This document shows positions 11,455 to 22,595 of a DNA stretch of 64,000 nucleotides, piece by piece. How positions within the stretch are numbered: the stretch's first letter is position 1; the number at the start of each line of letters is the position of its first letter. This stretch comes from a virus, in the IMG/VR virus record IMGVR_UViG_3300028845_000328. One strand, written 5' to 3'. The notes under the pieces are model-generated. The model saw only the letters and a program-made list of their open reading frames with translations, was not told where the DNA came from and ran no database searches. The position numbers and the translations under genes are program-made.

Positions 11455-11816
11455 AATTCCAACTTAGAATACCAATCCTCAAGTTCTTCATCTGAAGAAG
11501 TTTTCCGGAAAGCATGGTTTGTAAAATTGCATCCACAATTGGGGTGAGATGTGGCACATAGCCAATAGTCCTCCGGGGAACGGCCTACATTATTCTTTCC
11601 GGGCCATACTGCAATTGTTACACCATTTGGGTCATTAATTACAGAGTCATCCCCTCCATAATAATCAGACGATTCGAAGTCATCCCTACTTTTGAAAACT
11701 CTAGCAACAGTCCCCCAATGGCTAGAGCAAAAAACACAGGAAACCCTTTTTTTTCCCTTCAAAAATTCGTGCGTATGCGTTTCCGGTTCGTCTTTATAAT
11801 TATCCCAAAAGTTCAA
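11451..11816 (-). CDS. Stand-alone MuF-like C-terminal Cys/His module
   Basis: CVFC ... WPGKNNVGR ... HPNCGC; N-terminal EFLKG tag. Confidence 0.55.
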   Translation of the reverse strand: MNFWDNYKDEPETHTHEFLKGKKRVSCVFCSSHWGTVARVFKSRDDFESSDYYGGDDSVINDPNGVTIAVWPGKNNVGRSPEDYWLCATSHPNCGCNFTNHAFRKTSSDEELEDWYSKLEF

Positions 11817-12544
11817 TAGTGTTTCACCATTTCCGATAATATTTTTGAAAGATTATTTTTTGATGTAGTTAAATCTGAGTTCAATGAGGTGAAGGTGGCT
11901 GCGTTATTCGGAACTCCCGATGGATTTCCTGGAGCGCTACATGTCACGGTTATCAGTTTTATGGCATCATTCATAGCTTTGATTGTGTCAATCAACTGTT
12001 CTAACTGTGTTTTCAAGGTCTCTCCCTGCACTGCCTTTTCGAGTGAATTTATTGCTGGAGGGGAATTGACATTGATTTGAAATCGTATGGCTCCGGTTTT
12101 ATCTACGTGCTTCAAAATACCCTGATCCGCCCAAATCGTTTTATGGCCTGACTCATGACCGGCAGAGGTTTCATCCGGCTTATAATCGGTATTCGCATTT
12201 AGGTGCGCTTTTGTTGCCCGTCCTCCGTCAAACGGATAGACCTTTGTTATGATAGGATTGTCTCGCCTGTTTTGCAGGAATTCGACAAGAACAAATTGTC
12301 CAACGTAAAATCCATTTTTGAATCCAGATTGAAATCCTTTTTTACCATAATAAGGACCAGGTAAACGCAGCTTTTCGATCACTTGCCCATTGTGTAATTT
12401 CACATCGCAGCGATATTTAAGCTTAGGATATAATTTCCAGATTTGTCCAGGCTCCGGCCCGTTTAGAGCTGATGGCATTGACGGATTGCGTGCGTCCCAC
12501 TGAACAACTTGCCGTGGTCTGAATGATTCAAATAAATCCGACAT
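11813..12544 (-). CDS. Baseplate central spike (gpV-like)
   Basis: OB-fold-like N-terminus GQFVLVEFLQNRRDNPII; HESGH motif; AVQGETLK pattern. Confidence 0.7.
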   Translation of the reverse strand: MSDLFESFRPRQVVQWDARNPSMPSALNGPEPGQIWKLYPKLKYRCDVKLHNGQVIEKLRLPGPYYGKKGFQSGFKNGFYVGQFVLVEFLQNRRDNPIITKVYPFDGGRATKAHLNANTDYKPDETSAGHESGHKTIWADQGILKHVDKTGAIRFQINVNSPPAINSLEKAVQGETLKTQLEQLIDTIKAMNDAIKLITVTCSAPGNPSGVPNNAATFTSLNSDLTTSKNNLSKILSEMVKHY

Positions 12545-12551
12545 AGATTGT

Positions 12552-12582
12552 GACTGTATTCATGCTTTATTCGGGCAATCAA
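12552..12582 (-). promoter_or_regulatory. Degenerate promoter TTGATT-N18-TACAGTC ahead of the spike gene
   Basis: 7 nt upstream of an SD-less ATG at 12544; only a partial match to the late motif and could be sigma70-type. Confidence 0.35.
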
Positions 12583-12608
12583 GCAAAATTCTGTTTGTAC
12601 TTTTAATA

Positions 12609-12637
12609 TTGAAATAAAATTATTGGTAAATTACAGT
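12609..12637 (+). promoter_or_regulatory. sigma70-like promoter TTGAAA-N17-TACAGT
   Basis: Canonical spacing, upstream of ATG 12656. Confidence 0.5.
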
Positions 12638-12655
12638 AGAAGTTGAGACGATTAT

Positions 12656-12919
12656 ATGAACATGAAATTGAATAGGTACGATATTAGTAAGATTCAAAAA
12701 TTACGGTATAAAACTGGAAAGAAAATTTTAGAACTGGAAATCAAAGAAGAACTTCCTTTTTTTGCATTCAAAATAGATCACCCACACAATCTCGAAGGCG
12801 AGAATCACCCGGTTCATGTTTTGAATAATTTAAGAGAAGCAATTCTGAAGGTACAGCAACTTAGCCTATTTAATGTCTCCATTGAAATAGACTTTGATGA
12901 GTCCCTTGAAAAGGATTGA
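12656..12919 (+). CDS. Island paralog 1 (unknown function)
   Basis: MKLNRYDISKIQKLRY ... VSIEIDF, shared with paralogs 2 and 3. Confidence 0.7.
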   Translation: MNMKLNRYDISKIQKLRYKTGKKILELEIKEELPFFAFKIDHPHNLEGENHPVHVLNNLREAILKVQQLSLFNVSIEIDFDESLEKD

Positions 12920-13357
12920 TCAAAATCCGAATACTTTGAACTTTTGCATTACTCCAAGCAAAATCAGAATAATACTCAAGCTCATTAAAAGATAAACCAA
13001 AATCAGATAAAATCTCTTTCTTGCATATATTTTCGCAATAGCTTCTTTTATATCTAATGGCTTATGCTTACTTACCTTACTTTCAATCGGCATAATTGAA
13101 ATGAATGAAAGAGTCATCGTGAGAAATAATATCAAAAGGGTTGTTACATATAAAGACGAAGGGAATCCTTCCATCTTATCGTTAATTGCAAACATGATCG
13201 AAAAGAGAGCAACCGAAAATGTAAATAGCCTGTTCAGGCTATCATTCAATACAAGAAGACTTTCTTTCGGGAACTGCAACGCCCATTCAGAATAAAAAGC
13301 ATTTTCAGGGGATGGTGGTGTCGATAGAAATATCTTTTCCTTAATTTTCTTTTTCAT
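12920..13357 (-). CDS. 3-TM membrane protein
   Basis: Three hydrophobic helices; its stop abuts the stop of paralog 1. Confidence 0.6.
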   Translation of the reverse strand: MKKKIKEKIFLSTPPSPENAFYSEWALQFPKESLLVLNDSLNRLFTFSVALFSIMFAINDKMEGFPSSLYVTTLLILFLTMTLSFISIMPIESKVSKHKPLDIKEAIAKIYARKRFYLILVYLLMSLSIILILLGVMQKFKVFGF

Positions 13358-13538
13358 TTATAACCTCAATGAATTGAATAGGATTTCCGCACTTATTACA
13401 CTGTCCAGTACAAATTCTTTGTCTTGGTATTTCAAGAGATTTTTTTGTTTTCATGAAAGTTTCCATCACTTCAAGCTCATCAATGTTATATTCCCCTACG
13501 TTTTGACAATTCCAGCATGTTATTTTAATAGATTTCAT
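13341..13538 (-). CDS. Small Zn-finger protein
   Basis: CWNC ... CNKC; overlaps the start of the 3-TM gene. Confidence 0.55.
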   Translation of the reverse strand: MKSIKITCWNCQNVGEYNIDELEVMETFMKTKKSLEIPRQRICTGQCNKCGNPIQFIEVINEKEN

Positions 13539-13652
13539 TTTCTGATTATCGGATATTTCTGGAAGAGAGACAGATTGTTTTTCATTTCCAAAAAAGGATT
13601 TGTACTTCCATCCGGAAAAATATTACTGTTTTATTTCATTGGAGACGAAAAT

Positions 13653-13937
13653 ATGAAAGTGAGAGTAAACCGCTACAAAATTGCAGATATTGAAAAAATC
13701 CGTTATGTAATCAAGGGGAAAGAATTTGACAAGACAGTCGAATTGCCACTTAAAAGGAAATTATCACAATTTGACTTAGATAACCGAGAGGCTCAGGAGT
13801 CTTTGTCAATGATCCTGAAAATAAACAATTTCATAGACGCACTAAAAGAACTTACCAAAGTTACTGAAATTGAGCTTGAGGTAGAATTCCCGGACGAGGA
13901 AAAGTATCACAAAGAAAGAGGATCCCGAAATGAATGA
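13653..13937 (+). CDS. Island paralog 2 (unknown function, 94 aa)
   Basis: Start re-called at ATG 13653 with a GGAG SD; MKVRVNRYKIADIEKIRY ... IELEVEF. Confidence 0.7.
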   Translation: MKVRVNRYKIADIEKIRYVIKGKEFDKTVELPLKRKLSQFDLDNREAQESLSMILKINNFIDALKELTKVTEIELEVEFPDEEKYHKERGSRNE

Positions 13938-14121
13938 GAAATTAGAAAAAGAAATGAATGAATGCCACTCATGGATTTTACCAAAAGGGACACTCATTCA
14001 TTATGAAGGGATTCCTTATCGCTTAGGGATGGATACCGATGTGTTCGGGAATACTCCGATTCAACCGGATATGACTTATCCATCTGATGACGAGATAAAG
14101 AAATTTTTTAAAGATTTATAG
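13930..14121 (+). CDS. Hypothetical protein
   Basis: Track ORF overlapping the paralog 2 stop. Confidence 0.5.
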   Translation: MNEKLEKEMNECHSWILPKGTLIHYEGIPYRLGMDTDVFGNTPIQPDMTYPSDDEIKKFFKDL

Positions 14122-14198
14122 GTTTTTCTTTACCCATTCAGATAACCTCATCCGGAATTAAGCCTCTAATATCTGATAAAAATATAGCAGAAAAATGG

Positions 14199-15182
14199 TT
14201 ATTCTTTTTTTTCTGGAGAATGCCCTAATAATTTTTGTTCGCTATTTTTTAATAATTTATTTTTGTCTTTGAAGTTAGGAATATCGAAAATTGGATCATT
14301 ATCTTTATCATCTTCAATAGCTTTATATATTTCTAACCCTTTATCAATAAGTTTACTCATTTCCTCTATAGAAAATTTCAGATTATTTTTGTAATCATTG
14401 ATTTCAGTATCACTTTTTTTATTAATAGTATCTGGATATTTTTTTTCAATTTCAGACAATGCCGTGTTAGTTCGCTCAAGTAAACTAGCCTCGTAATTTG
14501 TCTTTATTATTTTTAAAAATTCTTCTTGTGCTGCATGACTGGCATTATAAGATTTTATCATTACCTCCATAGTTTTAGCCTGATGATAATCTTTAATATA
14601 TAAATCGAAACTTTGCCTTACTACTTGAGTGAAAATAAAAATACCAACAGCAGTTGATACATAAATATTAATCCACTTTGAACCCACATCAAAGCCTGTT
14701 ATCTCTATTTCGGATTCTCCAAACAATGGAAGTAAAACTATTTTGTCCATTGTATTAAAGAAATTAGAATAGTCGGAAAAGCCTTTTAACTGAGGAAGTA
14801 AAATACTGAAAGAATCCAAATCACTTTTAATAATTTGATCTTCTAAAATTTCTTTAAGGAGAGTTGCATTTGTAACAATACTGCTAATAGAATTTTGGAT
14901 AGAGTTAGCAGTCCCGGTATCAATATTTATTGCATCTAATTTGAGATTATTAAATGGTTCAAATTTAAAAATAGATTCAATCTTCCCTGTAAAAGAGGAT
15001 ATATTTGATAATTCCTTAAATGATTCGAAAGCTTTTTCTAAATTAGAGATACGAGTAATTTGACTATTTATTGTTTTGTATTCTATTTTCTGTATAGGTG
15101 GAATGTTATTATTAAGTAAATCTAAAGTATCTTTTAATCTCATATTTCCACGTAAAACTTTTAAAATTGATTTGTCAAGCAC
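14199..15182 (-). CDS. AT-rich accessory protein of unknown function
   Basis: 327-aa ORF, visibly lower GC than its flanks; no motif recognised. Confidence 0.65.
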   Translation of the reverse strand: MLDKSILKVLRGNMRLKDTLDLLNNNIPPIQKIEYKTINSQITRISNLEKAFESFKELSNISSFTGKIESIFKFEPFNNLKLDAINIDTGTANSIQNSISSIVTNATLLKEILEDQIIKSDLDSFSILLPQLKGFSDYSNFFNTMDKIVLLPLFGESEIEITGFDVGSKWINIYVSTAVGIFIFTQVVRQSFDLYIKDYHQAKTMEVMIKSYNASHAAQEEFLKIIKTNYEASLLERTNTALSEIEKKYPDTINKKSDTEINDYKNNLKFSIEEMSKLIDKGLEIYKAIEDDKDNDPIFDIPNFKDKNKLLKNSEQKLLGHSPEKKE

Positions 15183-15327
15183 ATCAAAAAATTACTTGAA
15201 TCCTAAAACTAACCTCTCAAATTCTGGTCATTATGAAAAAAATCATCCTATTCCTGATTTCTTTCTTGTACAATTCTAACTGCATCCAAGAAATTGTCTT
15301 ATTCAATAATCAGAGGATACCGTTAAT

Positions 15328-15621
15328 ATGAAAATGAAACTACACCGATACAACCTAAAAGAAATCAAAAAGTTAAGATATACACTAAAGCAAGATGGGA
15401 AAATCATAGAATTAGATTTGGATAAAAGAATAGAAGTCCGGGATTTATATAATCCGCCATATCCGCCACCTGAGTTTATAGGGCATACACATCGACTTCT
15501 GAATGAACTTAAAGCAATTCAAGAAAGCAATCAAGTTGAAATCGAAATAGAATTTCAGGAAAATAATTTTGAATTTTTACAAGAACTATTTAATGATAAT
15601 ATAAAATCCAAAGAGGCATGA
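15328..15621 (+). CDS. Island paralog 3 (unknown function)
   Basis: MKMKLHRYNLKEIKKLRY ... VEIEIEF; GAGG SD. Confidence 0.7.
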   Translation: MKMKLHRYNLKEIKKLRYTLKQDGKIIELDLDKRIEVRDLYNPPYPPPEFIGHTHRLLNELKAIQESNQVEIEIEFQENNFEFLQELFNDNIKSKEA

Positions 15622-15622
15622 A

Positions 15623-16501
15623 ATGAAAATATTAATCCTAGCACTCACACTCCTACTAACCCTCCACCTCTTCCCGCAGTCAGAAGCTCCGAAAACACAG
15701 CCTGAGAAAGAACAGAGTCCCCAGGAAACCGAAAACCAAGAGCCTGCCAAAAGCGCAGAGGAACTCGCCGAGGAAAAACGCAAGGCAGAGTTTGAAGCCG
15801 AAAAGAAAAAAATTGTCTCAATCTGGGAAAGGGATTCCCAAACAATTCTTGGTATCATTGGAGAGTTTTTATTAGCGAGTCGAGAAAATATGAACGCTAC
15901 TGAATTGCAAAAAATTGAAAATAAAAAACAATTTAAGCAAAAACTAAAAGAGTTAAATAAGAAATATTATGGAGCTACTATAAAACTGGAACGTGTTATT
16001 CTCAGTGAAGTAAACGAAGAAACAAGATTTACTGATTATGGGAAAAAGTATATTAAAAAGATAATATCAGAACTCAAGGGCGACCCATCCAAAAACAGTA
16101 TTTTGCTATTAGGTGAAGATATATCAAAGAATATTGTTTTAGGCTTTTATTTAATGTCACAAATAAAAGCCTGCCAGAAATGTGAAGAAAAAACTGGTTA
16201 TTTTGAGGCAATATATGAGATACCAATGCCCACATTTAATGAATTGGAAAATAGAATTTCATATTCCAACACTGGAATTAAACTTAAAATTTGCGATACA
16301 AAATACTGTTATATAAATAGCAGCGATAGAAATTATTGTGAAGGCGTAACCGATGATTACTGTGGACTTCTTTCCGTAAAAATAAAGAAAACAATAAAAA
16401 CAAAACAGAAAGCCCTCTCTTTAGAAAAGGGCAAAATTTACCATCTCAATTCTAAGATAAGCTATTTTAATGAAAATATGGAAATGATCATAGACGATTA
16501 A
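15623..16501 (+). CDS. Exported protein with signal peptide
   Basis: MKILILALTLLLTLHLFPQS signal-like N-terminus, Q/E/P linker, several Cys in the C-terminal half. Confidence 0.6.
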   Translation: MKILILALTLLLTLHLFPQSEAPKTQPEKEQSPQETENQEPAKSAEELAEEKRKAEFEAEKKKIVSIWERDSQTILGIIGEFLLASRENMNATELQKIENKKQFKQKLKELNKKYYGATIKLERVILSEVNEETRFTDYGKKYIKKIISELKGDPSKNSILLLGEDISKNIVLGFYLMSQIKACQKCEEKTGYFEAIYEIPMPTFNELENRISYSNTGIKLKICDTKYCYINSSDRNYCEGVTDDYCGLLSVKIKKTIKTKQKALSLEKGKIYHLNSKISYFNENMEMIIDD

Positions 16502-16573
16502 CTCTTCTGTGATCATTGCTTTCGAGATATACAGTAAAATTTTTCTTTTTTTAGACCTGTATGACCAATTCTT

Positions 16574-18502
16574 TTATTTAGATTTAATTCCAAATTTTTC
16601 TTTCATACTTTTATATTCCCCGTTCAACCACTTCAAAGCACCCAAAAATTCTTTTGCTATCGCCTGCTGTTGCGCAAACGCATCCCGAAAAACATCAAGT
16701 GTCGCCGCTGCTGTATCAGTTGCATTTTGTGTTCCGCGATAGCTTTGACCACTAACGCTTTCAACTTTGTTAGAAGCCGAATCCGCTCCGGTAGCTTTTT
16801 TGTTTATCTGTTCGTTAATTTCCCAAATATTTTTCCCGGTTTTAGCCCTCTCGTTAGCTTCGGTCGCTGTAGATATTCCCAATTGTTTTTCGAGAATGCC
16901 TCTAGTTTCAGGGTCAAGGTCTTTCATCAAATCTTTCATGAAGCCCATATTTGCTTTACTCGTTATCCCTTCTTCTGCACCAGCCATAGCGCCTAAAAGA
17001 CTTTTTCCCGAATTCAAATGTCCTGCCATAGCGATTGAGTTCATGAGGCTGCCTGATTTTTTGAATCCCTGATCAATACCCGAATATACAGAACTCAGTC
17101 TGGCATCCCTGACACCAGTCATTGCAAGACCGCCAAGCACGTTCGATACATCGGATGTTTTCTGAATTCCCATTCCGGATGTGTATGCGTTTTCGGAGAG
17201 TCCGGAAACAGTCTGAAAAAACTCGGCCTGTCGTAGACCGGAAAATCCTGAATGAATTGCATCTGACATAATTTTTTTCATGTCATCTTTATTTCCACTG
17301 AAATTTCCATACTTTTCCATTTTGGCAAAAAGTTCAGCTCCTTGAGTCCCGCCAATTCCTTGGGATAAACCGAATTTCATACCTCGCGTAACGCTATTAT
17401 CCTTATTATATATGTAACGCTGCTGTTCATCCTCCTCCCATTTTTTCCATTTCATTTTTCCATCTTCATTTAGGAATTGGATTTCCCCTTTTTTGTGCAG
17501 ATATGTTTGTGTTGGGTCTTTTTTTAGTATTGAATTATAAACATCTGCGTCACCGCCTATAATTCTAGAACGGGATATTCCAATTTTAGCCAGCTCTGCA
17601 TTTGAAACTAAACTACCACCACCGGAAATATATTTGCCATAAACATCAAGAGTTGAATCCTGAGACTGCATAGATTGCTGGTGCATCCCAGCCATTGATG
17701 AAACCATTGATAGATATGCTCCAGCAGCAACACCTAATCCCAGTGGGATAGCATTTGCAGCGTTTCCAATTTTAGTTAACATTCCACTTTTTCCAGATTC
17801 TGGGTTAATATTAGTCTGTATCGGATTTGTAGGCATTGCTGGGGACCCTGTCAATTTCCGGATGGTTTCCTCTGAAGCCGGACGTAGCGGAGACATCCCA
17901 GGAATACCTGAGTGTCCGGGAAAGCCGGGAATCAGTGGAGAGCTGCCACGTCCTGGCGAACCAGGCATACCACCCTGAAACCCCGGAAATCCTCCCATAC
18001 CCGGCATCCCGGGAATACCTGAGATTTTACCAAACGTCGCGCTTTTGAAAATCGCATTTGCAAATGTTACACCTTTTTTACCGATAGTACCTACACCATC
18101 AATGTGCGTACCCTTGAACTTATCAGCGTCGGCTTTCATCGACTTCTGGATCATTTGCATAATTTCTTTCGGTGGAGCTTCAGCTTTTTGCTGTTTCTTG
18201 TATGCCTTTGTAAAGCCATCGCTAACTTTCTTGAAAGATTCGATTTTCCTTGTAACCACACCGGAAAATTCTCCGGACTTTAACTCAGCCGCGTCCTGCT
18301 TAAGCTGCCCTCCTATTGATTGTCCAGTCTGGTTGCCTTCGCTGATAGCCTGTGTCGCACTTCGTTCATCCCTTCTTAGGATTGAGTCTTTCGGTGGTTT
18401 TCTGCCACTGTGTTGCTCCATAGCAAACCGTCTTTTCATCTCATCGCTCATAAGAGCATACAACCTGTCTGCTGATAATTTAACCGATTTGTCTATGGCC
18501 AT
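16574..18502 (-). CDS. Tape measure protein
   Basis: Follows tube and chaperone genes; Gly/Ala/Met-rich helical composition. Confidence 0.75.
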   Translation of the reverse strand: MAIDKSVKLSADRLYALMSDEMKRRFAMEQHSGRKPPKDSILRRDERSATQAISEGNQTGQSIGGQLKQDAAELKSGEFSGVVTRKIESFKKVSDGFTKAYKKQQKAEAPPKEIMQMIQKSMKADADKFKGTHIDGVGTIGKKGVTFANAIFKSATFGKISGIPGMPGMGGFPGFQGGMPGSPGRGSSPLIPGFPGHSGIPGMSPLRPASEETIRKLTGSPAMPTNPIQTNINPESGKSGMLTKIGNAANAIPLGLGVAAGAYLSMVSSMAGMHQQSMQSQDSTLDVYGKYISGGGSLVSNAELAKIGISRSRIIGGDADVYNSILKKDPTQTYLHKKGEIQFLNEDGKMKWKKWEEDEQQRYIYNKDNSVTRGMKFGLSQGIGGTQGAELFAKMEKYGNFSGNKDDMKKIMSDAIHSGFSGLRQAEFFQTVSGLSENAYTSGMGIQKTSDVSNVLGGLAMTGVRDARLSSVYSGIDQGFKKSGSLMNSIAMAGHLNSGKSLLGAMAGAEEGITSKANMGFMKDLMKDLDPETRGILEKQLGISTATEANERAKTGKNIWEINEQINKKATGADSASNKVESVSGQSYRGTQNATDTAAATLDVFRDAFAQQQAIAKEFLGALKWLNGEYKSMKEKFGIKSK

Positions 18503-21446: not shown

Positions 21447-21719
21447 TTATTTCCCGTAAAACTCCTGAAATGCCTTCTCGAAATCTGATTCAGCTTTGAA
21501 TTCATTGAACCGTGGTCTATTTTTTATGCAGAAATTCTTAAACGCGTGAGTCATTGAATACCTCTCCAATTCCGGTTTCGAGGATATGAATTTCTCAAGA
21601 GGATTTACTTGTGCAGCATCCGGTAATTTCTTTTCCTCGGTAGGTTCTGACTGATTGCTTCCATTTTCCGGTAGTTTTTGTTCGTCAGCTTGGTTGTTTC
21701 TTTTATCGCCTAATGCCAT
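21447..21719 (-). CDS. Small protein preceding the sheath
   Basis: Track ORF; first gene after a promoter motif. Confidence 0.6.
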   Translation of the reverse strand: MALGDKRNNQADEQKLPENGSNQSEPTEEKKLPDAAQVNPLEKFISSKPELERYSMTHAFKNFCIKNRPRFNEFKAESDFEKAFQEFYGK

Positions 21720-21747
21720 TTGTCACCGTCCGATTTCGATAGAGAGG

Positions 21748-21777
21748 GACGAAAAACATAGGCTGAAAAAAATGCAA
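21748..21777 (-). promoter_or_regulatory. Late-promoter-like motif TTGCAT-N17-TTTCGTC
   Basis: Matches the recurrent motif; heads the tail operon. Confidence 0.7.
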
Positions 21778-21800
21778 TAAAAAATTAAAAGATTTTGTTT

Positions 21801-22595
21801 TTAAATTAGAGCTGGGTTCGTGCCAAATCCTTTCAAGCCTGATAAATTCGATTTTGACCTATCCGACAGGGAAACATCTGCCTTCCTGATAAGAGGTTCT
21901 TCAGACAGCATAAAGATTCTTCTGATCTGGCGAACTTGTAATTTTACTTCAAAACCAAATGCGCCTCGCCCTATCTGTGGAGCTTCAATATTCAATTGAG
22001 GACTCCCGTTTAACAATACCGTAACTTTGAATCGTTTATGCAAATCCGTCTTAATAAATGGCAAAACAGCATCGACGCCTTTATAAATGTCCTGTGCAGA
22101 TTTTCTAGCTGAAGACCCTAATGGCCCTGACCAACCTGAAATCATCACATTCGATACAATGTGGCCCGTAACAGATTCAACCTGCTTAAATGCCCTGGAT
22201 TCTAATGATTTCTTGTATAGGGCATACGAGATGTTTTCGTATTCTGAATCTTTCTTGTTTTCACGCTCCATGTATGCCTGAATCTTATTTTTTATCCTTG
22301 AATCGAATCCGAAGTAGTCAGTATTTCCTCCGAGATCGTCTGCGTTCTCATCGTTCTCCCATTCAACACCGATTTTCGGGAAAAAGTTGTCTCCTTCATT
22401 ATTTTTTCCATAATCAGAACTGTTATTTTGTGCAAATGTATAGACAGGATGTCCGTATGTGACAAGGCTCTTTGTTTTTATACCGCGTTCATCCAATCCA
22501 GTCATTGGAAGAAATTTATTCAGAGCTTCGATAATCCTGAATTCAGGATCGCATTGCCACATTGATAGAATTAAGCCATTTTGATAATTATCCAT
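21801..22595 (-). CDS. Tail terminator / head-tail joining protein
   Basis: Position before the sheath; FFPKIGVE pattern. Confidence 0.5.
   Translation of the reverse strand: MDNYQNGLILSMWQCDPEFRIIEALNKFLPMTGLDERGIKTKSLVTYGHPVYTFAQNNSSDYGKNNEGDNFFPKIGVEWENDENADDLGGNTDYFGFDSRIKNKIQAYMERENKKDSEYENISYALYKKSLESRAFKQVESVTGHIVSNVMISGWSGPLGSSARKSAQDIYKGVDAVLPFIKTDLHKRFKVTVLLNGSPQLNIEAPQIGRGAFGFEVKLQVRQIRRIFMLSEEPLIRKADVSLSDRSKSNLSGLKGFGTNPALI

What the first reader, a model, noticed from the sequence alone, without database searches (positions are those of the whole stretch)
12656..15621. Accessory island built from three paralogous small genes, each beside a different cargo gene
Seen: three plus-strand ORFs of 87-97 aa share M.(M/V)(K/R)(L/V)xRYxIxxIxK(L/I)RY at the N-terminus and (L/I)NxL...(I/L)E(I/V)(D/E)F near the C-terminus (12656, 13653, 15328). 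They alternate with unrelated genes: a Zn-finger plus 3-TM operon, an AT-rich 327-aa ORF, a 63-aa ORF and an exported protein. The island sits between tape measure and spike, and at least paralog 1 has a sigma70-type promoter. Inference: a repeated moron unit (antitoxin/immunity, anti-defence or cassette-capture module) expressed in the lysogen or early phase. I do not recognise the family.
Basis: partly seen in the sequence, partly recalled or inferred. Interest (0 to 1): 0.65.

Follow-up and report, generated by a model that had tools for sequence, protein, structure and literature searches.

The report
Three paralogs of orphan phage protein
An uncultured Leptospira-type phage carries three old, diverged copies of a tiny, previously undescribed phage protein in a variable "extras" slot between its tail genes; the copies are real but are not tied to the neighbouring genes as first thought, and their most likely (unproven) job is to counter host defences.

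Summary
Three plus-strand ORFs (12656-12919, 13653-13937, 15328-15621) are significant paralogs (BLASTP E 2e-6 to 2e-9), there are exactly three in the window, and they are under purifying selection.

They belong to a very rare orphan family of about 15 proteins of 75-97 aa, all on phage or prophage DNA. No Pfam, PHROG, NCBIfam, PADLOC or PDB match was found, and no fused forms. The models give a beta-beta-beta-alpha-beta fold with no clear structural relative, and a homodimer whose interface holds all the conserved residues.

The island is a low-GC accessory hot spot between the tape measure and the LE1 gp40-like baseplate gene, and its content differs in every LE1-like relative examined.

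The "paralog plus cargo unit" reading is not supported:
- In a related phage the three orthologs lie in tandem at another site, with no cargo between them.
- Related prophages keep one copy beside entirely different cargo.
- The exported protein occurs without any paralog.
- No cassette repeats flank the genes.

Distant members sit just before the head-protease gene, where flanks are known. In two lineages an HTH gene follows. This is the slot and layout of anti-CRISPR loci in Mu-like phages.

Best guess: diversified anti-defence proteins (about 0.4), untested.

The parts
11813..12544 (-). Left flank: baseplate/spike-like protein, homologue of LE1 gp40
   Evidence: tblastn 46.5% identity over 98% to LE1 gp40. 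phrog_33385 E 6e-75, plus a weak baseplate PHROG hit.
12594..12602 (+). Conserved upstream motif TTTGTACTT, 62 nt before the par1 start codon
   Evidence: One of only two copies in the 64-kb window. The same 9-mer lies 53-56 nt upstream of family genes in L002 (twice) and L007-L010.
12656..12919 (+). Paralog 1 (87 aa), the lineage that relatives keep next to the gp40-like gene
   Evidence: Orthologs are 61-64% identical in L002 and L007. The par1 clade has support 94/92.
12920..13357 (-). 145-aa membrane protein with hydrophobic segments, convergent with par1
   Evidence: Hydropathy windows. Ortholog is 63% identical next to the tandem trio in L002. No family hit.
13341..13538 (-). 65-aa CxxC...CxxC zinc-ribbon protein, first gene of the TM/Zn operon
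   Evidence: Sub-threshold Zn-ribbon Pfam hits. Ortholog is 47% identical in L002.
13599..13607 (+). Second copy of TTTGTACTT, 54 nt before the par2 start codon
13653..13937 (+). Paralog 2 (94 aa)
   Evidence: Ortholog is 51% identical in L002.
13930..14121 (+). 63-aa ORF overlapping the end of par2 by 8 nt; an orphan absent from the L002 module
   Evidence: No family hit. Absent between the tandem paralogs of L002.
14199..15182 (-). 327-aa very AT-rich ORF (GC 0.27), window-specific cargo of unknown function
   Evidence: Only sub-threshold Pfam hits. The language-model search gives unnamed phage/bacterial clusters. No plasmid match.
15328..15621 (+). Paralog 3 (97 aa; gene callers used Met3, giving 95 aa)
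   Evidence: Ortholog P0008 is 82-83% identical. Clade support is 93/87.
15623..16501 (+). 292-aa signal-peptide protein, a conserved resident next to the tape measure and not paralog-specific cargo
   Evidence: Homologues lie next to the tape measure in L007 (33% identity, E 1e-32) and L005 (E 4e-6) without an adjacent family member.
16574..18502 (-). Right flank: tape measure protein
   Evidence: 38-48% identity to the tape measure proteins of LE1, L005, L006 and L007. Synteny with LE1 gp34.

Best explanation
The three ORFs are ancient, diverged paralogs of a rare, phage-restricted family of small proteins (75-97 aa) with no previous description. Each copy is a small beta-beta-beta-alpha-beta domain that is predicted to form a symmetric dimer. 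The conserved N-terminal (R-Y ... R) and C-terminal (I-E-I-D/E-F-E) motifs make the dimer interface. The middle third of the protein is unconserved and differs between the paralogs. Par1 and par2 each carry a conserved motif (TTTGTACTT) about 55-60 nt upstream, and par3 has a weaker version; I read these as copies of a promoter-plus-gene unit. The genes sit in a low-GC accessory hot spot between the tape-measure gene and the gp40-like baseplate gene of an uncultured LE1-like Leptospiraceae phage. They are not functionally tied to the genes between them. What is conserved is the trio together with the TM/Zn-ribbon operon. The 63-aa and 327-aa ORFs are later insertions, and the exported protein is a resident of the site. 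Inferred, not shown: the proteins act as dimers that bind and neutralise host targets, and are most likely anti-defence (anti-CRISPR-like) proteins. Three copies would then give three specificities on one scaffold.
For: Paralogy and coding status are shown. The family is rare and confined to phage DNA: about 15 proteins among 1.8 billion representatives and 5.8 billion clusters, all on phage or prophage DNA where the flanks are informative, and no longer fused forms. The fold models have pLDDT 72 and 84. The homodimer test gave ipSAE 0.65 (runs 0.64-0.67) against a best control of 0.00; partner pLDDT was at least 78 and at least 93% of contacts agreed between runs. That mark was reached by 20 of 30 proteins solved as pairs and by 1 of 23 solved as single chains. 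All eight invariant or near-invariant non-Met columns (R7, Y8, I13, R17, E28, E73, F76, E78) fall in the 39 interface residues out of 80; by my own hypergeometric estimate that is p about 0.002. Hot-spot evidence: GC is 0.31 against 0.42-0.44, and the tape measure-gp40 gap has different content in LE1, L005, L006, L007 and pLiSL40. Independence from cargo: the trio is tandem in L002-L004 at another site, and a single par1 ortholog lies beside BrnTA, R-M, IS and DUF4747 in L007-L010. Anti-defence lead: in L020, L028 and L017 the member lies directly upstream of the head maturation protease gene (phrog_8158 in L020 and L017), and in L020 and L028 also downstream of the MuF-like gene. In L017 and in L021-L023 an HTH_17 gene above Pfam's cut-off follows it at once. 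In Pseudomonas Mu-like phages the anti-CRISPR operon occupies the slot between Mu G and the protease/scaffold gene, has a conserved 5' promoter region and ends with an HTH gene (PMC3993853; PMC4378225). HTH_17 genes have been reported beside AcrVA1 homologues (PMC6739104). The conserved upstream motif is shown.
Against: There is no sequence or fold similarity to any known anti-CRISPR or other anti-defence protein. The best structural scores are Foldseek E above 0.3 and VIA Z 4.0, which is within noise. No HTH gene lies next to the paralogs in the window, L002 or L007. The repeated placement just before the head protease in several lineages could instead reflect a head-related role. Basic N-terminal halves and dimerisation also fit a DNA-binding regulator. 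The host and its defence systems are unknown because the window is metagenomic. The positional argument is guilt by association from few contigs.
Confidence: 0.4

Rival explanations
1. The proteins are small dimeric DNA-binding regulators that control their own transcription units and the neighbouring accessory genes, for example by acting at the conserved TTTGTACTT motif.
For: The N-terminal 30 residues are basic (net +3 to +6 in most members) and the C-terminal part is acidic. A dimer is predicted. A conserved motif lies at a fixed distance upstream of five of seven family genes in LE1-like phages. Each paralog heads a short plus-strand unit.
Against: No HTH, RHH or AbrB signature appears in Pfam or NCBIfam. 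No fold match to DNA-binding proteins was found. Apart from GTAC the motif is not palindromic, which is odd for a symmetric dimer. In L017 and L021 a separate HTH protein is encoded right behind the member, so the DNA-binding role may be supplied by that partner. Distant members lie inside head operons without the motif.
Confidence: 0.2
2. The trio and the TM/Zn-ribbon operon form one five-gene module. The membrane protein is the effector (superinfection exclusion or abortive infection) and the small proteins modulate or neutralise it.
For: The trio and the TM/Zn operon are adjacent in both phages that have three copies, although the module sits at different genome sites and in a different internal order. 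Prophages with a single copy lack TM/Zn.
Against: Only two related phages are available, so linkage by descent is not excluded. Single-copy members in six or more other lineages have no such neighbour. TM/Zn matches no known defence or exclusion family.
Confidence: 0.12
3. The proteins are accessory factors of head assembly, since distant members sit between the MuF-like gene and the prohead protease/scaffold gene.
For: The same slot is used in L020 and L028, where both flanks are seen. L017 shows the protease side, and L014 has a MuF-like gene and a capsid gene on either side.
Against: The family is far too rare to be a core part of MuF/protease head modules. In LE1-like phages the genes lie outside the head module, on the opposite strand, in low-GC DNA, in one or three copies. 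They are absent from the stretches examined in LE1, L005, L006 and pLiSL40. That same slot is a known accessory site (PMC3993853).
Confidence: 0.1
4. One reading: each paralog is the antitoxin, immunity or adaptor partner of the different cargo gene beside it, forming a repeated moron or cassette-capture unit.
For: In this window par2 overlaps the 63-aa ORF by 8 nt and par3 is separated from the exported-protein gene by 1 nt. Toxin-antitoxin genes occur near members elsewhere: BrnTA in L007 and a HicB-like gene in L011.
Against: The orthologs are tandem with no cargo in L002-L004. Par1 has no co-directional partner. The exported protein occurs without a paralog in L005 and L007. BrnTA is a complete pair on its own. 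No cargo gene matches a toxin family. No flanking direct or inverted repeats exist.
Confidence: 0.07

Closest known systems
Anti-CRISPR (acr-aca) loci of Pseudomonas Mu-like phages (JBD30/D3112 group)
   Same: Both involve small phage-only proteins that are patchy and fast-evolving, with several unrelated or diverged small genes per locus. Distant members of this family occupy the slot directly upstream of the head protease/scaffold gene. In two lineages an HTH gene follows the member. A conserved 5' motif is present. Sources: PMC3993853.
   Different: No sequence or fold similarity to any solved Acr was found. There is no HTH neighbour in the window. In LE1-like phages the site lies between tail genes, not head genes. 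Activity is untested.
Phage morons / regions of genomic plasticity (accessory hot spots between conserved late genes)
   Same: The island has low GC, runs on the opposite strand between conserved structural genes, and differs in content in every relative. PMC4378225 describes such regions in Mu-like phages.
   Different: A resident gene family has expanded to three old paralogs here, and the module has moved between two sites of related genomes.
Type II toxin-antitoxin antitoxins (e.g. BrnA, HicB)
   Same: The proteins are small and predicted to be dimeric, and they occur near toxin-antitoxin genes in two contexts.
   Different: There is no conserved toxin partner, no recognised antitoxin DNA-binding domain, and the neighbouring toxin-antitoxin pairs are complete without this protein.

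Membership tests
Anti-CRISPR / anti-defence protein (Acr-type locus) | Small protein encoded on a phage or mobile element, in an accessory slot, with patchy distribution | tested here: met
   75-97 aa. All informative contexts are phage or prophage DNA. About 15 members in 1.8 billion representatives.
Anti-CRISPR / anti-defence protein (Acr-type locus) | Operon partner with an HTH domain (aca-like) directly downstream | tested here: inconclusive
   Met for distant members in L017 and L021-L023 (HTH_17, 45.2 and 38.4 bits against a cut-off of 27). Not met in the window, L002, L007, L020 or L028.
Anti-CRISPR / anti-defence protein (Acr-type locus) | Sequence or structural similarity to a characterised anti-defence protein | tested here: inconclusive
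   No hit in the PDB by sequence. No clear hit by fold with two models: Foldseek E above 0.3, best VIA Z 4.0. Most Acr families are unrelated to one another, so this does not exclude the function.
Anti-CRISPR / anti-defence protein (Acr-type locus) | Inhibits a host defence system | not testable with these tools
   This needs plaque or transformation assays. The host genome is not held.
Type II toxin-antitoxin pair | Conserved adjacent partner gene (toxin) across homologues | tested here: not met
   Neighbours differ in every context, and the three orthologs are tandem without partners in L002-L004.
Type II toxin-antitoxin pair | Recognisable toxin or antitoxin domain | tested here: inconclusive
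   No Pfam, NCBIfam or PADLOC hit above cut-off for the paralogs or their neighbours.
Integron-like / cassette-capture array | Repeated recombination sites flanking each unit | tested here: not met
   Only short chance-level repeats occur in 12400-16700. The only recurring element is the 9-mer upstream of par1 and par2.
Phage moron / accessory hot spot | Composition unlike the flanks, insertion between conserved genes, and variable content among relatives | tested here: met
   GC 0.31 against 0.42-0.44. Five different contents of the tape measure-gp40 gap.
Phage moron / accessory hot spot | Own promoter and terminator | tested here: inconclusive
   Sigma70-like sites are not above shuffles (17 against 19.8). 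Terminator-like sites are 6 against 1.8, but all lie on the minus strand. A conserved upstream motif is present.
Core head-morphogenesis protein of MuF/protease modules | Present in all related phages within the head module | tested here: not met
   No member was found in the stretches examined of LE1 (18.7 kb), L005, L006 and pLiSL40. In LE1-like phages the genes lie between tail genes on the opposite strand.

The most novel reading that the evidence does not exclude
The KINRY...IEIDFEE proteins are a new family of dimeric anti-defence proteins. A conserved strand-swapped dimer core displays a hypervariable surface. The three paralogs, possibly also as heterodimers since the interface residues are shared, would then neutralise three different host immune targets of Leptospiraceae. 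The TTTGTACTT element would be their shared early promoter or operator.
Probability: 0.3. Interest if true: 0.6.

Novelty: new member of a known kind. Interest (0 to 1): 0.4.

Why it matters
Leptospira phages are barely explored, and no anti-defence or host-takeover protein is known for them. Genetic tools for Leptospira are limited by poor transformability. A phage-borne inhibitor of leptospiral CRISPR-Cas or restriction systems would be of practical use. More generally, this is a clean small case of an orphan family with a conserved dimer core and a variable surface, expanded to three copies and moved between two hot spots of related phages. It gives three natural variants to test side by side.

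Tried and rejected
- Family libraries: Pfam, PHROGs, NCBIfam and PADLOC gave nothing above cut-off for the paralogs or the cargo genes.
- PDB by sequence profile: no hit at E up to 10.
- Fold searches with two models (pLDDT 72 and 84) against PDB, BFVD, the ESM Atlas and the wide VIA search gave only noise-level rows. The best was Z 4.0 to a YlxR homologue, with WNK CCT-like at Z 3.7 and Foldseek E above 0.3. The language-model atlas search gave scores of 0.80, at chance level.
- Fused or longer forms: none found.
- The 617-aa hit P0012 in the representative search is a repeat protein matching only 37 profile positions. I treated it as spurious.
- Phage and plasmid collections hold no DNA match to the region and no protein match to par1, par3, the TM protein, the 327-aa ORF (plasmids only) or the exported protein (phages only).
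- IMG/VR scans found one further member (L028). The metagenome scan found none. The genome-collection scan with the sheath protein gave two Leptospira prophages without family members.
- Cassette or attC-like repeats: none. Rfam and tRNA scans: nothing.
- I could not define -35/-10 elements around the TTTGTACTT motif. It is not an inverted repeat beyond GTAC.
- The deep order of the three paralog lineages relative to other phages' members is unresolved, with supports of 61-82.
- No whole genome is held for the window. Earlier scan notes on this window concern other genes and did not bear on this finding.
Full report
**1. What is in the sequence**

Between the minus-strand gene 11813-12544 and the minus-strand tape-measure gene 16574-18502 lies a 4.0-kb stretch. 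The left-hand gene is 46.5% identical to gp40 of Leptospira phage LE1 and matches phrog_33385 at E 6e-75.

The stretch has GC 0.31, against 0.42-0.44 for the flanking tail genes and 0.39 for the window. The gene order is:
- par1 (12656-12919, +)
- a 145-aa membrane protein and a 65-aa zinc-ribbon protein forming a minus-strand operon (12920-13538)
- par2 (13653-13937, +), overlapped by 8 nt by a 63-aa ORF (13930-14121, +)
- a 327-aa ORF with GC 0.27 (14199-15182, -)
- par3 (15328-15621, +), followed 1 nt later by a 292-aa protein with a signal peptide (15623-16501, +)

**2.

- The three small proteins are significantly similar: BLASTP E 2e-6, 2e-7 and 2e-9.
- A family HMM finds exactly three copies in the window.
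- Orthologous pairs in related phages show far fewer non-synonymous than synonymous differences. pN is 0.10-0.29 and pS is 0.64-0.89; dN/dS is about 0.07 where dS can be estimated. These are therefore real genes.
- The sigma70 promoter claim is weak: 17 consensus-like sites occur in the island and 19.8 are expected in shuffles.
- A sharper upstream signal exists. The 9-mer TTTGTACTT occurs only twice in 64 kb, 62 and 54 nt upstream of the par1 and par2 start codons. The same 9-mer lies 53-56 nt upstream of family genes in related phages: twice in L002 and once each in L007-L010. Par3 has a degenerate version, TTCTTGTAC.

**3. The element and its relatives**

The window is a metagenomic contig, seen in Logan SRR10823756 and JGI 3300028898 with the same island in other samples. 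It comes from a contractile-tailed phage related to LE1: the sheath, tube, chaperones, tape measure, gp40, gp41 and baseplate genes are syntenic. No genome is held for it.

The gap between the tape measure and gp40 is a hot spot. Its content in each relative is:

| Element | Gap content |
|---|---|
| LE1 | 5.9 kb with gp35-gp39 |
| L. ainazelensis and L. adleri prophages | about 1 kb; a homologue of the exported protein was detected in L. ainazelensis only |
| L. interrogans plasmid pLiSL40 | four hypothetical genes |
| Leptospiraceae MAG prophage (L007, 79% identical gp40-like protein) | a 67-aa ORF, a par1 ortholog, BrnT/BrnA, an NspV-type endonuclease with an NPPW methyltransferase, an IS, DUF4747, then the exported-protein homologue |

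The exported protein is therefore a resident of the site rather than cargo of par3. The par1 lineage is a second resident, at the gp40 end.

**4. The paralogs are not coupled to cargo**

A related phage was recovered in three independent assemblies (L002, L003, L004). Its structural proteins are 78-81% identical to those of the window.

- It carries orthologs of all three paralogs head-to-tail in the order par2, par1, par3, with spacers of 41-55 nt and nothing between them.
- The trio is followed by the convergent TM/Zn-ribbon operon.
- This five-gene module is inserted between the orthologues of window genes 21447-21719 and 21801-22595, next to the sheath gene. In the window those two genes are only 81 nt apart.

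Three conclusions follow. The triplication predates the split of these phages; the par1 clade has support 94/92 and the par3 clade 93/87. The trio and TM/Zn travel together. The 63-aa and 327-aa ORFs are additions specific to this window. No direct or inverted repeats bound the units. This removes the basis for a "paralog plus own cargo" unit, for an antitoxin reading and for cassette capture.

**5. The family**

- Exhaustive profile search of 1.8 billion representatives, plus two word-indexed searches of 5.8 billion clusters, give only about 15 proteins of 75-97 aa. One more came from IMG/VR. No longer fused forms exist.
- There is no hit in Pfam, PHROGs, NCBIfam, PADLOC or PDB sequences.
- The invariant columns are R7, Y8, R17, E28, E73 and F76. 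I13 and E78 are nearly invariant.
- The N-terminal 30 residues are basic in most members, the C-terminal 30 are acidic, and pI is 5.1-6.6.
- AlphaFold models (pLDDT 72 for par3, 84 for the 75-aa member P0016) agree on three short strands, a long helix and a C-terminal strand.
- Neither model has a convincing structural relative. Best values are VIA Z 4.0 and Foldseek E above 0.3, which is at noise level.

The homodimer test passed:
- ipSAE was 0.65 (three runs, 0.64-0.67) and the best of three controls was 0.00.
- Partner pLDDT was at least 78, and at least 93% of contacts were shared between runs.
- The mark was reached by 20 of 30 proteins solved as pairs and by 1 of 23 solved as single chains.
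- The counts hold only roughly because my own alignment was used. This supports binding but does not show it.

In the model the C-terminal strand (70-76) pairs with strand 15-20 of the other copy, and the helices pack together. All eight conserved non-Met columns lie in the 39 interface residues out of 80; my own estimate is p about 0.002. The conserved motifs are thus best read as the dimer core. The unconserved middle third is what differs among the paralogs. This last step is inference.

**6. Contexts of distant members**

- L020: terminase, portal, MuF, a 99-aa gene, the member, head maturation protease (phrog_8158, E 3e-160), a virion structural protein, capsid.
- L028: portal, MuF-like, a 62-aa gene, the member, a 413-aa protease/scaffold-like protein by position (not scanned against families), capsid.
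- L017: the member, HTH_17, protease (phrog_8158, E 2e-104), capsid.
- L021-L023: the member, then HTH_17.
- L014: a MuF-like gene, small genes, the member, capsid.
- L011: an RHH-like fragment, a HicB-like gene, the member.

In Pseudomonas Mu-like phages the anti-CRISPR operon sits between the Mu G homologue and the protease/scaffold gene. It has a conserved promoter region at its 5' end and ends with an HTH gene, and its gene combinations are reshuffled between phages (PMC3993853; PMC4378225). HTH_17 genes have been seen beside AcrVA1 homologues (PMC6739104). The slot and layout of the distant members therefore match an acr-aca locus. This is guilt by association, not a test.

**7. Mechanism and odds**

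Shown:
- three real, old paralogs of an orphan phage family
- a low-GC accessory hot spot
- independence from the intervening genes
- a conserved upstream motif

Supported by models only: the dimer, with the conserved motifs as its interface.

Inferred: the proteins bind host targets through their variable surface and act as anti-defence proteins, with three copies giving three specificities. I put this at about 0.4.

Rivals:
- a dimeric DNA-binding regulator acting at the motif (0.2)
- a five-gene module in which the membrane protein is the effector of exclusion or abortive infection (0.12)
- a head-assembly accessory factor (0.1)

**8. Novelty and verdict**

The family is undescribed, but the kind of thing is familiar: small accessory genes in a phage plasticity region. 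It is a new member of a known kind, with a testable anti-defence lead in a poorly studied phage group. I score interest at 0.4.

Noticed in passing
window 15233-15328 (+): A 31-aa ORF (MKKIILFLISFLYNSNC...) resembles a lipoprotein signal peptide followed by a stop. Its stop overlaps the par3 ATG (ATATGA). It may be the remnant of a truncated lipoprotein gene left by rearrangement of the island.
   Followed up: no
L007 10342-13267 and 15006-16028: The related Leptospiraceae MAG prophage carries defence-type cargo in the same tape measure-gp40 gap: BrnT/BrnA, an NspV-family endonuclease with an adjacent NPPW-motif methyltransferase, a DDE transposase and a DUF4747 protein.
   Followed up: partly
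window 21720-21800, compared with L002 1003-2735: The 81-nt spacer between the 90-aa and 264-aa genes upstream of the sheath gene is a second insertion site. The related phage L002 holds the whole trio plus the TM/Zn module there.
   Followed up: yes
L029 9112-10593 (L. interrogans plasmid pLiSL40): This LE1-like plasmid-prophage has a further insertion, a 313-aa protein and an ImmA/IrrE metallopeptidase, between the gp41-like gene and the baseplate genes. That is a third variable site in this tail module.
   Followed up: no
L001 5336-5866 and 6088-8871 (LE1 gp38, gp39): LE1 fills the same gap with five unrelated genes, including two small exported proteins (gp35, gp36) and a 927-aa protein. 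None of them is a member of the paralog family.
   Followed up: partly
L014 6651-6896 and L017 3-110: A small Cys-rich protein (CGNCIHC ... DH..PY.GD.GI.FE) recurs just upstream of family members in two unrelated phage contigs. It has no family assignment.
   Followed up: no
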